DNA of 64,000 nt from Perna viridis (Eukaryota). Location: contig CM074518.1 in assembly GCA_037379345.1 (NCBI GenBank), positions 9,362,001 through 9,426,000 of the forward strand, written 5' to 3'. The position numbers were made by a program. Shown piece after piece: positions 1-3,000 of the stretch; position 1 is the first letter of the stretch; each line of letters opens with the position of its first letter.

Positions 1-3000
1 AATAACACATACTGGCACATTAACTTGATGTAGTTTTGCATTTATTTCGAATTTTGTAAGCAAAAACCACGGTTTACTAAAATTACACGATGCGAATACA
101 TGCATAAAATGATTTAAAACACACCAAACGTCGTACGCAAACATCGCCGTAACATTTATTCCGATTGCCAACAACAGATGCACTTCATTAAAATTTCATC
201 TAACTGAATAATATAATAAAATATCTGTATTAATTATGTTTTAAGTGGCTAAAGACTCTGATGCATGATCATGTCCGTTTATGAAATGTAAACCACCGTT
301 GTGTTGTAGGCGACACCCATTTGTTATCGGCCCTGACCTGTTTATCTGCTACCCCACATCTTCTCCAGCAGTGTATTCCGACCGACCAAGATTTTGACAA
401 CCAATATGCTGGGGTTTTCCACTTTAGATTCTGGAGATTTGGAGAATGGGTTGAAGTTGTTATAGATGATCTCCTACCTACAGTGGATGGTAAATCCCAA
501 CCCTAATTTAAAACGTATACGTTAGAAAAAAAGGAATCAATTCTATAACGTTAAATGGTTAATGCAACACATCAATACATTAATAACTATAGAATTTTGT
601 AAAAAAAAAAAACGGTACATGGAAATGCTTACTGTACTCTGTTCATTTAATATATTGATTCATTTCACAATTACTTATGCATTATTAGCAATATTCATCA
701 AAGTCAGCCAAATGCTTTGTGCTACTAATCACATGAAATTCCGTGTTTTTTTTCATAGGCCATCTTTTATACATGAGGAGTACTGACCCAGAGGAATTCT
801 GGCCATCACTATTCGAAAAAGCCTACGCTAAGTAAGTGAAGTCCAGACTTTTCATATAAACAATGTGGGGAATGTGTTTGAACAAAATAGTGTCCTTGAT
901 TCCCCCATAATCAAATGCATTGATTTCCATGTATGTTTCTAATGGAAAAGCGTTCCCTTTGACAAATAATCGGCAAGCTTACCATCGCTTAACTATGTGC
1001 GGTATTAAAACAATGAAGTTACTTATTGAAAAACTAAAGAAGAAAAACATGTAATGTACAATATTTTGCTTTTGGTGAACTCTCTTTTGTTCGAGACGAT
1101 AGACTAAATAGTTACCTTGCAAAACCTAAAATCCTTTTGTTTAAACCAGTACGACACCACGAATGTGTCTCATGTGCATTGGTGATTTTTTTAATTCTGT
1201 ATTTTATAGACTTTATGGTTCCTATGAAAATATCCATGGAGGAAATATTAGTTGGGCATTACAAGACACCACAGGTGGTATAGCTAGCACTCATGATATG
1301 ACGGAAAGTTCTAGACACATACTGACAGTTATTGATCTGGCAATGACCAGAGCTTCACTACTGGGAGCATACATATCTGTAAGTTATTTCAATAAAATTG
1401 CATCATTTAATAAAAAAACTTGAACACTTGAACAGAAAAATGAAAAGAGAAATGGAAAAAAATGACAGTAACGTCAATCTTTGATACAAAAACTAAAATG
1501 TTAGTCACTCATCTAACGGTTATCCCAATGGGTAACTTAAATTTAGTAACTTTTGTGATTTACTGAGGTAGCTATGTGTCTATTGATTTTGGCATTCTAG
1601 GTATGAAAAATGTTTTCTTTTTAAGAAAACACATTTCAATTTAGTTTCCATAAAATATGAAACTCATATGCTACTTATGCATATTAACAATTGGAAGATT
1701 AATCCAGGGAACCAATATTATAGCGGAAATTAAAAAGAATGTAACCCAGGGACGAAGAACATACATGGGAACATAGACACAAACAACAAAAATCATAAAA
1801 TAACCAAAAAATAGTATGTACAAAGTATCTAAAGTAAACGAGCAACTTGAACTCCACTAAAATCTTGGAGCAGGGACTAGGTGCACCGGTAGGGCAAGCG
1901 TCCTCTGCTTTTCTAGAAACAACCGTCGAGTTGCTCATAGAAAGTCCAGAGTAGCCGAAAGAGGAAAGAAAAACTAAGACACGTTGAACAAATCAGTTTC
2001 ATGGTGCAGATGGATACACCGTAAAGAACCTTGAGTTCATGATAAGGGAAAAATATTTTACAAAATTGTCGTGAGTTTATTCTTCAGTTTTCATATGTTT
2101 AACATGTTTGTGTGTAACATATAAAACATACGACTAACTGATGTTTTTTTTCTAGATGTCCCAAACATGAATACAAATATGTTAAAATTATTACGGTGTT
2201 TGATTTCACTTACAGCCAACGCTTACAAATAACAAAGCAGGAGTGCTTAGTAATGGGTTGATGTCTGGACATACGTACAGAATGACAGGTTATGCTGAGG
2301 TACGTCATAGTATATCTAATGAAAGCAAAACTAAAATATCTTGAGATAAATATAGATGTACAAGTAAAATGCAAGCTAGTTCAAACAGTATTTGTTTTAT
2401 TTTACTAGACGTCCCGCTTTTTGTACATTTGCCTAAGAAAAGCCTACGTTATGTTTAAGTTATTTCGTTACTGTTAAATCTGTTAATGATATCTTTTAGA
2501 TTCCAGTAACAGGTGGCAAGCTTGTACTGTTAAGGCTACACAATCGTTGGCATAACATTAACTGGAAAGGGGCGTGGAATCAAAGGTTTGTAATTGCAAG
2601 GCACAAGGAACCAAAGGTTTGCAAATTGAAAAGGACATGGAACCAAAAGTTTTCCAAAAGAAGGACGTTGTATCTAAGGTTTTCATTCCTTTTTTGTCAA
2701 CCTCGGACTTGACTATTTTATGAGCAACTCGGCGGGTGTTTATAGAAAAGCAGAGGACGCTTACCCTATCGGTGCATCTGGTTCATGCTCCCAGTTTTAA
2801 CTGGAGTCTGAGTTGCTAAGTTACTTGTGTTACTTTGTATGTATTATTTTGGTTATTTTATATTCTTTGTTGTGTGTATCTGTTTTCCATGCCGGTCTTT
2901 GTCCCTGGATTACATTTTTTTATTTGCACTAAAATTTTGTTTCCTTTGGTTACTCTTTGCAAAAAGAAAGGGTCGTGGAACCAAAAGTTTGTCAGTGGAA

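What the first reader, a model, noticed from the sequence alone, without database searches (positions are those of the whole stretch)
309..345. Intact but catalytically dead classical calpain (Cys->Thr)
Seen: the active-site segment reads G-D-T-H-L-L-S-A (ACC at 315-317, CAT at 318-320) where calpains have G-D-C-W-L-L-A-A. Catalytic His (GHTY) and Asn (HNRW, replacing RNPWG) positions remain. All 18 exons keep frame and splice sites, and both codons differ from TGY/TGG by more than one base, so a sequencing error is unlikely. Known: non-proteolytic calpains exist (mammalian CAPN6, Drosophila CalpC). Inference: an independent pseudo-protease with a scaffold or regulatory role.
Basis: partly seen in the sequence, partly recalled or inferred. 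Interest (0 to 1): 0.65.

Follow-up and report, generated by a model that had tools for sequence, protein, structure and literature searches.

The report
Cysteine-less classical calpain in a bivalve
This is a real, intron-containing bivalve gene for a calpain-like protein whose catalytic cysteine is replaced by threonine, but it belongs to a widespread invertebrate calpain family that has lost that cysteine many times, so it is a new example of a known thing.

Summary
Window 310-489 is a calpain protease-core exon (Pfam PF00648, E 6.7e-23) that reads D-T-H-L-L-S-A where solved calpains have D-C-W. The His (2270-2272) and Asn (2542-2544) codons are kept. I rebuilt 18 GT-AG, phase-consistent exons (310-14721, + strand): protease core, domain III and a degenerate penta-EF-hand domain. 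The 5' exons lie off the window.

The gene is not a lone oddity. Its nearest named relative is Mytilus galloprovincialis "calpain-9-like", the best hit for 14 of 17 exon pieces at 62.5% identity, and that protein keeps Cys-His-Asn. Both sit in a bivalve clade sister to an arthropod clade, split from EF-hand classical calpains with SH-aLRT 100. Of 122 aligned relatives, 85 lack the Cys, 16 have Thr, and 9 have exactly Thr-His-Asn.

The window gene keeps the family consensus in 99 of 108 highly conserved columns, as the Cys-bearing mussel protein does (98 of 108). That fits a constrained non-proteolytic calpain.

Loss of activity and a scaffold or regulatory role are inferred, not shown. No close orthologue, transcript data or dN/dS was available. 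All searches were done exon by exon; the joined-model steps were left out.

Verdict: a new member of a known kind, of modest interest.

The parts
310..489 (+). Exon Ea: protease-core exon with the nucleophile position. Thr codon ACC is at 315-317 and His codon CAT (in place of the usual Trp) at 318-320. The first codon is split (x+GC).
   Evidence: (PF00648 profile 54-117, E 6.7e-23)
759..831 (+). Exon Eb, protease core
   Evidence: (profile 116-140)
1210..1378 (+). Exon Ec, protease core
   Evidence: (profile 140-200)
2216..2299 (+). Exon Ed with the catalytic-position His (CAT 2270-2272, G-H-T-Y)
   Evidence: (profile 201-229, E 0.064). No PDB hit on its own.
2500..2585 (+). Exon Ee with the catalytic-position Asn (AAT 2542-2544, H-N-R-W-H in place of R-N-P-W-G)
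3598..3675 (+). Exon Ef, end of the protease core (ends D-G-E-F-W, with the W codon split)
   Evidence: (profile 251-280)
5437..5606 (+). Exon Eg, core-to-domain III junction
   Evidence: (E 3.4e-26)
6031..6164 (+). Exon Eh, domain III
   Evidence: (PF01067 19-74)
6777..6985 (+). Exon Ei, domain III
   Evidence: (PF01067 78-137, E 1.3e-8)
7964..8000 (+). Exon Ej, linker (R-E-L-D-D motif shared with bivalve relatives)
9527..9595 (+). Exon Ej2, linker. Probable: picked from 49 frame-compatible candidates for its strong splice sites and weak similarity to the mussel protein. The model stays in frame without it.
9983..10076 (+). Exon Ek, start of the penta-EF-hand-like domain
   Evidence: (69% identity to the mussel protein)
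10434..10498 (+). Exon El. Its last codon is the first Asp of an EF-hand loop. The donor is GTATCC.
11127..11195 (+). Exon Em, the rest of that loop. Across the junction the pattern is D-x-N-x-D-G-x-L-x-x-x-E (canonical).
13210..13285 (+). Exon En, the EF-hand 3 region with a degenerate loop (acidic ligands replaced)
13794..13907 (+). Exon Eo, the EF-hand 4 region. It matches grancalcin and sorcin.
   Evidence: E 0.0034-0.058
14549..14619 (+). Exon Ep, penultimate and variable tail. Probable: picked from 24 candidates that restore the phase.
14695..14721 (+). Last exon. It has 8 codons ending I-Y-S plus the TGA stop (14719-14721), matching the family's conserved C-terminus. AATAAA follows at 14836.

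Best explanation
The window holds most of a genuine spliced gene of a bivalve mollusc, nearest to mussels. It encodes a classical-architecture calpain homologue: protease core, domain III, and a degenerate penta-EF-hand domain.

The gene belongs to a protostome clade (bivalves plus arthropods) that is separate from the EF-hand-proficient classical calpains. This is probably the 'classical family C' named after Drosophila CalpC. In this clade the nucleophile Cys has been replaced again and again, while the fold, the His and the Asn are kept.

In this gene the Cys is Thr and the following Trp is His. No thiolate-imidazolium pair can form, so the protein is most likely not a protease.

The fold-determining residues are retained, along with the His, the Asn, the Trp of N-x-W and one canonical EF-hand loop. 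I therefore infer that the protein still folds like a calpain and acts by binding rather than cutting. The most likely modes are holding calpain substrates or partners in the dead cleft, or pairing through its EF-hand domain with active calpains, as proposed for CalpC and for the insect dead calpains.

Shown: gene structure, homology, residue states, clade membership of the relatives, and the pattern of conservation.
Inferred: loss of activity, expression, and the binding role.
For: Gene and domains:
- Exons tile PF00648 positions 54-280 and PF01067 positions 19-137.
- There are 18 phase-consistent GT-AG exons.
- The tail exon matches penta-EF-hand proteins.
- The nearest relative aligns with mu-like calpain 1qxp from residue 115 to 751, through the EF-hand domain.

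Residues:
- Thr lies on the nucleophile position in ungapped alignments to solved calpains.
- His and Asn are kept.

Relatives:
- Mytilus galloprovincialis calpain-9-like is the best hit for 14 of 17 exon pieces and by summed tblastn bits: 866 against 603 for the next.
- In a tree of 52 database proteins, 14 bivalve rows form one clade (SH-aLRT 100). This clade is sister to 26 arthropod rows (100). The pair is split from 12 EF-hand classical calpains (100).
- Of 122 aligned relatives, 37 have Cys and 85 do not. Thr occurs in 16 and Thr-His-Asn in 9.
- The tree needs at least 15 changes of residue at that position.

Constraint:
- In 108 columns at least 90% conserved among 39 other family members, the window gene keeps the consensus in 99 and the Cys-bearing mussel protein in 98.
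- In the 317 columns under 70% conserved, the window gene matches in only 59.

Literature (passages read):
- PMC5650170 defines classical family C, with inactive ecdysozoan and deuterostome members.
- PMC11387712 shows that a dead insect calpain has a knock-down phenotype and that CalpC is reported to interact with Calpain A and B.
Against: - No transcript evidence, and no orthologue close enough for dN/dS.
- The exon searches found no protein more than about 71% identical to the nucleophile exon (Ea), and a search with exon Ei found nothing at all. Constraint since the Cys was lost is therefore unproven, and the conservation pattern could have been laid down before the loss.
- The 5' exons are missing, so the open reading frame is not shown complete.
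- Two short exons are weakly supported.
- The window gene was placed by per-exon best hits only, not in a tree.
- Identity of the clade with CalpC was not tested against a Drosophila sequence.
- Passages of PMC11387712 note that calpain-3 needed Cys-to-Ala, not Cys-to-Ser, for complete loss of activity. A hydroxyl at this position is therefore not automatically inert.
Confidence: 0.7

Rival explanations
1. It is a young pseudogene. The nucleophile was lost and the copy is decaying, but it has not yet picked up stops or splice defects.
For: No expression data. No close orthologue was found. The active-site motifs are more eroded than in the mussel relative: T-H against C-C, and H-N-R-W-H against R-N-P-W-H. 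The tail region is poorly conserved.
Against: All 18 exons are open with GT-AG and matching phases over about 1.8 kb in a 32% G+C genome. The window gene retains 99 of 108 highly conserved columns, equal to the Cys-bearing relative. Going from TGY to ACC needs at least two substitutions and the neighbouring codon two or three more, so the state is not brand new. The same Thr-His-Asn state is kept in 9 annotated relatives.
Confidence: 0.1
2. It is still a hydrolase, using Thr or another residue as nucleophile with the retained His and Asn.
For: His, Asn and the Trp of N-x-W are retained. PMC11387712 (passage) cites work in which calpain-3 needed Cys-to-Ala rather than Cys-to-Ser for complete loss of activity.
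Against: Across the clade the position holds 13 different residues, including Pro, Gln, Tyr and Ile. That argues against any chemical role for it. The flanking Trp is also lost here. From recall, not tested here: papain-fold enzymes with an internal Thr nucleophile are not known to me.
Confidence: 0.07
3. The locus also makes an active form, through an alternative, mutually exclusive exon carrying G-D-C-W or through a paralogue elsewhere. The Thr exon would then be only one isoform.
For: The window starts only 309 bases upstream of this exon, so upstream alternatives cannot be seen. PMC5650170 (passage) describes alternative N-terminal exons that reach into the catalytic domain in an Aplysia classical calpain.
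Against: The bivalve family HMM found a single match to this part of the domain on the + strand and no calpain match at all on the - strand of the 64 kb. No second copy of the exon lies in the flanking introns.
Confidence: 0.08
4. It is a sequencing or assembly artefact at the active-site codons.
For: None found.
Against: At least five base differences across two adjacent codons. There are no N runs in the window. The exon is otherwise well conserved.
Confidence: 0.02

Closest known systems
Mytilus galloprovincialis 'calpain-9-like' (777 aa; protein P0218)
   Same: It is the best hit for 14 of 17 exon pieces and 62.5% identical over 541 aligned columns. The architecture is the same and so is the C-terminal I-Y-S ending. 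It shares the unusual G-H-T-Y-R and N-x-W-H motifs.
   Different: The mussel protein keeps the nucleophile Cys (G-D-C-C) and R-N-P-W-H. The window gene has G?-D-T-H and H-N-R-W-H.
Heterodont clam 'calpain-A-like' proteins (Mercenaria XP_053384119.1, Ruditapes, Mactra, Mya) and scallop 'calpain-2 catalytic subunit-like' proteins
   Same: They sit in the same bivalve clade and the nucleophile is also lost: Thr in the clams, Asn in the scallops. They are annotated in public databases.
   Different: The clams have also lost the His (Arg), and Mercenaria the Asn (Tyr). The scallops have Asp for Asn. They are more distant from the window gene than the Cys-bearing mussel and oyster proteins, so the Thr here is probably a separate event.
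Arthropod one-per-species clade annotated 'calpain-9-like' or 'calpain-1 catalytic subunit-like' (probably the CalpC type)
   Same: It is the sister clade of the bivalve group. No EF-hand Pfam domains are detected in it. The nucleophile is mostly lost while His and Asn are kept, and the exact Thr-His-Asn state occurs in 9 proteins, e.g. Scylla, Palaemon and Periplaneta.
   Different: A different phylum, at about 37-39% identity to the bivalve query used. I could not confirm that this clade contains Drosophila CalpC.
Drosophila CalpC and Rhodnius dead calpains (PMC11387712; PMC5650170)
   Same: Classical-type calpains with active-site substitutions. They are regarded as non-proteolytic, and scaffold or regulatory roles are proposed for them. 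Rhodnius CalpA/B2 has a knock-down phenotype (passages read).
   Different: PMC5650170 states that the lophotrochozoan members of family C it examined (Crassostrea, Aplysia, Capitella) all keep the triad. This gene, and the clam and scallop proteins, do not.
Vertebrate CAPN6
   Same: A non-proteolytic calpain homologue. It is named as such in PMC11387712 (passage).
   Different: From recall: CAPN6 has a C2-type C-terminal domain like CAPN5 and a Lys at the nucleophile. Here the tail is penta-EF-hand-like, so the two are unrelated losses.

Membership tests
Calpain family, Peptidase C2 (PF00648) | Homology to the CysPc protease core | tested here: met
   Six exons tile profile positions 54-280. 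The nucleophile exon alone scores 81.6 bits, E 6.7e-23. It aligns without gaps to solved calpains. Profile positions 1-53 lie off the window.
Calpain family, as an active cysteine peptidase | Nucleophile Cys | tested here: not met
   Thr (ACC 315-317) sits on the Cys position.
Calpain family, as an active cysteine peptidase | Catalytic His and Asn | tested here: met
   His is at 2270-2272 (no PDB hit for this exon alone). Asn is at 2542-2544 and aligns to the Asn of R-N-P-W-G in calpain-3.
Calpain family, as an active cysteine peptidase | Oxyanion-hole Gln upstream of the Cys | not testable with these tools
   It lies in an exon to the left of the window.
Classical calpain architecture | Domain III (C2-like / CBSW) after the core | tested here: met
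   PF01067 positions 19-74 and 78-137 in two exons.
Classical calpain architecture | C-terminal penta-EF-hand domain | tested here: met
   The exon at 13796-13906 hits grancalcin and sorcin, E 0.0034-0.058. The nearest relative aligns with calpain large and small subunit EF-hand domains. The tail exons align to that relative.
Classical calpain architecture | Ca2+-competent EF-hand loops | tested here: inconclusive
   One loop with the canonical D-x-N-x-D-G-x-L-x-x-x-E pattern spans the 10498/11127 junction. The next loop is degenerate. A regex on unspliced frames found none. Relatives carry no EF-hand Pfam domains.
Bivalve-arthropod Cys-variable classical clade | Groups with this clade and apart from EF-hand classical calpains | tested here: inconclusive
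   The clade is well supported for database proteins (SH-aLRT 100). The window gene was assigned by per-exon best hits (14 of 17 to the mussel member) and summed tblastn bits. It was not placed in a tree, because the joined model was left out.
Classical calpain family C (CalpC type, PMC5650170) | Clade contains Drosophila CalpC | not testable with these tools
   No CalpC sequence was on hand. Accession lists are in figures or supplements that I could not read. The link is inferred from the paper's description: an oyster member with an intact triad, and inactive ecdysozoan members.
CAPN5/CAPN6 (Tra-type) | C2 domain after domain III | tested here: not met
   Calpain-5-type proteins match only core and domain III exons. 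The tail exons match penta-EF-hand proteins instead.

The most novel reading that the evidence does not exclude
In bivalves this calpain clade has dropped its nucleophile at least twice. One event lies on the branch or branches leading to scallops (Asn) and heterodont clams (Thr, Asn). A separate one lies in the mussel-like lineage of this window (Thr). The rest of the protein stays as constrained as in the Cys-bearing members.

That would mean the clade's core, selected function is non-proteolytic even where the triad is intact, in oysters, ark clams and Mytilus. It would also contradict the published generalisation that lophotrochozoan family C calpains keep the catalytic triad.
Probability: 0.3. 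Interest if true: 0.45.

Novelty: new member of a known kind. Interest (0 to 1): 0.25.

Why it matters
Dead calpains are an accepted class: CAPN6, CalpC, and the insect, nematode and protozoan examples. One more member changes little.

The modest added value is comparative. Here a Thr-His-Asn member sits next to a Cys-His-Asn relative (Mytilus) inside a clade where the nucleophile position is free to vary and everything else is held. That gives a natural series for asking what these proteins do without cutting, and whether the Cys-bearing members are really proteases.

It also corrects the impression, from a 2017 survey of three lophotrochozoans, that the molluscan members of this family all keep the triad.

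Tried and rejected
- Translating whole frames for Pfam failed because of stop codons. I replaced it with stop-free pieces.
- A regex for EF-hand loops on unspliced frames found nothing on either strand. The one canonical loop is split by an intron.
- The first word-indexed search with the nucleophile exon returned mostly calpain-5/Tra-type proteins, 47-67% identical. That is an artefact of shared words. HMMER against PDB and against the representative library shows the exon is of classical type.
- A word-indexed search with the longest exon found nothing (7 candidates, none at E<=0.001).
- The His exon alone gave no solved-structure hit at E<=10.
- I first took a single last exon at 14638-14718, but it needs phase 0, while the strong donor at 13908 leaves phase 1. 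I rejected it for the two-exon solution 14549-14619 plus 14695-14721. In one search that rejected piece was also misaligned, so I dropped it from the conservation counts.
- For exon Ek I rejected the acceptor at 9962 in favour of 9983 after exon 9527-9595 was found.
- Pfam on ten long ORFs elsewhere in the window found no family at E<=0.01. Rfam found no match.
- Three literature searches listed no paper on cysteine-less calpains in bivalves.
- In one search the residue under the nucleophile was read by ungapped back-extension from the BLAST start. A few of the 27 'non-Cys' calls there (for example rows with E, W, G or I) are probably misregistered, so I rely on the MAFFT-based counts.
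Full report
**What is there.** The window is 64,000 bases, about 32% G+C, with no N runs.
- On its own this exon scores 81.6 bits (E 6.7e-23) against Pfam Peptidase_C2, profile positions 54-117.
- It aligns without gaps to solved calpain-3, -8, -2, -1 and -9 (E 1.4e-19 to 5e-14), and to calpain-5 only with a shorter, weaker match.
- In the best alignment the Thr falls on the nucleophile position, which in entry 6bdt holds an engineered Ser.
- ACC is two or three base changes from TGY, and CAT is three from TGG, so a single-base error is excluded.
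- One correction: base 309 is the G of the acceptor AG and the exon begins at 310. The 'G' before the Asp is therefore a split codon whose first base lies in an upstream exon outside the window.

**Gene model.** I used three sources: tblastn of database calpains against the window, an HMM of 14 bivalve relatives searched against all stop-to-stop frames, and the DNA at each boundary.
- This gave 16 exons from 310 to 13907. All have AG acceptors, GT donors and matching phases.
- Two further exons, 14549-14619 and 14695-14721, restore the phase. They end in the family's conserved C-terminus, I-Y-S plus stop.
- Two short exons (9527-9595 and 14549-14619) lie in poorly conserved regions and are only probable.
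- The exons tile PF00648 positions 54-280 and PF01067 (domain III) positions 19-137.
- The tail exons align to the C-terminal domain of the bivalve relatives.
- One tail exon on its own hits the penta-EF-hand proteins grancalcin and sorcin (E 0.0034-0.058).
- The nearest relative aligns with mu-like calpain 1qxp from residue 115 to 751, through the EF-hand domain. 'Classical' is therefore right as an architecture.

The start codon and the first 53 profile positions of the core, including the oxyanion-hole Gln, lie to the left of the window, so the gene is not shown complete. No second calpain-like copy and no alternative version of the nucleophile exon exists on either strand of the window.

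**Catalytic positions.**
- His is kept (S-G-H-T-Y-R, CAT 2270-2272). The evidence is Pfam at E 0.064, the family HMM at E 3.5e-7 and tblastn with the mussel protein. This 28-residue exon alone found no solved structure at E<=10.
- Asn is kept (L-H-N-R-W-H, AAT 2542-2544). It aligns with the Asn of R-N-P-W-G in calpain-3 (E 0.0047). The Trp two residues later is also kept.
- The state of this gene is therefore Thr-His-Asn.

**EF-hand domain.** One loop with the canonical D-x-N-x-D-G-x-L-x-x-x-E pattern spans the 10498/11127 exon junction. The next loop is degenerate.

**Relatives.** Each search used a single exon or a database protein. The spliced model was never joined for a search, a fold or a tree, and that step is left out of this report.
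- The word-indexed search with the nucleophile exon gave 45 proteins among 54 candidates, mostly calpain-5/Tra types. Of those 45, 42 cover the site and all 42 have Cys.
- The exhaustive HMMER search with the same exon gave 1283 proteins at E<=0.001. None was more than about 71% identical.
- A word-indexed search with the longest exon found nothing. No close orthologue is therefore in these protein sets.
- The named top hits are bivalve proteins. A search with one of them (Mercenaria calpain-A-like) returned the family.
- By summed tblastn bits against the window, Mytilus galloprovincialis 'calpain-9-like' is clearly nearest, at 866 bits. Next come oysters at 603 and 581, and scallops and clams at 440-553.
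- The mussel protein is the best hit for 14 of 17 exon pieces. The three exceptions are the shortest, least conserved pieces.
- Identity to the mussel protein is 338 of 541 aligned columns.
- The source is therefore a bivalve nearest to mussels but not Mytilus itself. I did not try to name it further.

**The clade.** I aligned 122 proteins: the 120 listed plus P0056 and P0061.
- 37 have Cys at the nucleophile position and 85 do not.
- The counts for the other residues are Pro 21, Thr 16, Gln 16, Ser 7, Asn 6, Tyr 6, His 4, and smaller numbers of others.
- The exact Thr-His-Asn state occurs in 9 of them, all arthropods.

I then built a tree of 52 chosen from the 122, picked to span the groups (IQ-TREE quick search, SH-aLRT support only).
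- The 14 bivalve rows form one clade (SH-aLRT 100).
- That clade is sister to 26 arthropod rows (100).
- The pair is split from 12 EF-hand-bearing classical calpains (100).
- Inside each clade the order roughly follows the species, as expected for one gene per species. The mussel row has a long branch (0.76).
- The tree needs at least 15 changes of residue at the nucleophile position and at least 5 changes between Cys and non-Cys. Among the database bivalves alone, one Cys/non-Cys change suffices.
- Mussel, ark clam and oysters keep Cys. Scallops have Asn-His-Asp. Heterodont clams have Thr or Asn, with Arg for His.
- The window gene is nearest to the Cys-bearing mussel protein. Its Thr is therefore most simply a further, separate loss, which makes at least two in bivalves. 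This rests on best hits, not on a tree that contains the window gene.

**Constraint.** Each exon peptide was added as its own fragment to an alignment of 40 family members.

| Column conservation among the other 39 members | Window gene = consensus | Mussel protein = consensus |
|---|---|---|
| at least 90% | 99 of 108 | 98 of 108 |
| 70-90% | 65 of 116 | 69 of 116 |
| under 70% | 59 of 317 | not summed |

I dropped the rejected last-exon piece from these counts because it was misaligned.

Divergence has thus avoided the conserved columns just as in a Cys-bearing relative. That argues for a maintained protein over most of its history. It cannot date the constraint relative to the Cys loss.

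**Literature.**
- PMC5650170 (passages read) defines a 'classical calpain family C' around the inactive Drosophila CalpC. It has members in Crassostrea, Capitella, Aplysia, Daphnia and Branchiostoma. The paper states that the lophotrochozoan members keep the triad while the ecdysozoan and deuterostome members have lost catalytic residues.
- PMC11387712 (abstract and passages) reports that dead calpains arose several times in insects, that each insect has one CalpC, and that a dead Rhodnius calpain has an embryonic knock-down phenotype. It also reports that CalpC is listed as interacting with Calpain A and B.
- The clade I see fits family C. I could not test that, because no CalpC sequence was on hand and the accession lists are in figures or closed supplements.
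- Three searches listed no paper on cysteine-less calpains in bivalves. The clam and scallop proteins are already in public annotation.

**Conclusion.** With Thr for Cys and His for the next Trp, it is most likely not a protease and most likely acts by binding, as proposed for CalpC and other dead calpains. That part is inference. It is a new member of a known kind, inside a family where this loss is the rule rather than the exception.

**What stays open:**
- expression;
- selection since the loss;
- the missing 5' exons;
- activity of the protein;
- placement of the joined protein in a tree.

The prokaryote-only genome collection was not used, and the closed collections were not needed.

Noticed in passing
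window about 1695-2043, 2679-2957, 12721-13077, 37592-37776, 45298-45525, 51976-52155, 59612-60245, 63362-63536: An interspersed repeat family at 73-90% identity between copies, on both strands. Several copies lie inside calpain introns (self-blastn). Its frames give long hydrophobic pseudo-ORFs.
   Followed up: partly
window 20219-20851, 23994-24239, 2956-3214: Tandem arrays seen as staggered self-matches. The offsets suggest periods of roughly 46, 41 and 32 bases.
   Followed up: no
window 11926-12788 (+), with related stretches near 44.6-45.1 kb, 54.3-54.7 kb, 59.6-60.2 kb and 62.3-62.6 kb: Broken ORFs in the intron between exons Em and En contain a Y-I-D-D motif, seen by eye in the output. 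They look like a decayed reverse transcriptase of a retroelement. No Pfam family matched at E<=0.01. The copies were found.
   Followed up: partly
window 57805-58176 (-): A stop-to-stop ORF holds a hydrophobic, signal-peptide-like start followed by a Gly/Tyr-rich run, in the style of a secreted glycine-rich protein. No Pfam hit.
   Followed up: partly
related proteins P0213 (Ostrea edulis) and P0214 (Saccostrea), not in the window: The oyster members of the clade are about 1145 residues long and carry precomputed protein-kinase Pfam domains as well as the calpain domains. This is either a real fusion or merged gene models.
   Followed up: no
related protein P0218 (Mytilus), nucleophile motif: The nearest relative has Cys-Cys where calpains have Cys-Trp, and His for the Gly of N-P-W-G. 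The residues flanking the active site were therefore already drifting in a member that keeps the Cys.
   Followed up: no
window 15000-64000: No calpain-like match on either strand and no Rfam family. I did not annotate other genes there.
   Followed up: partly
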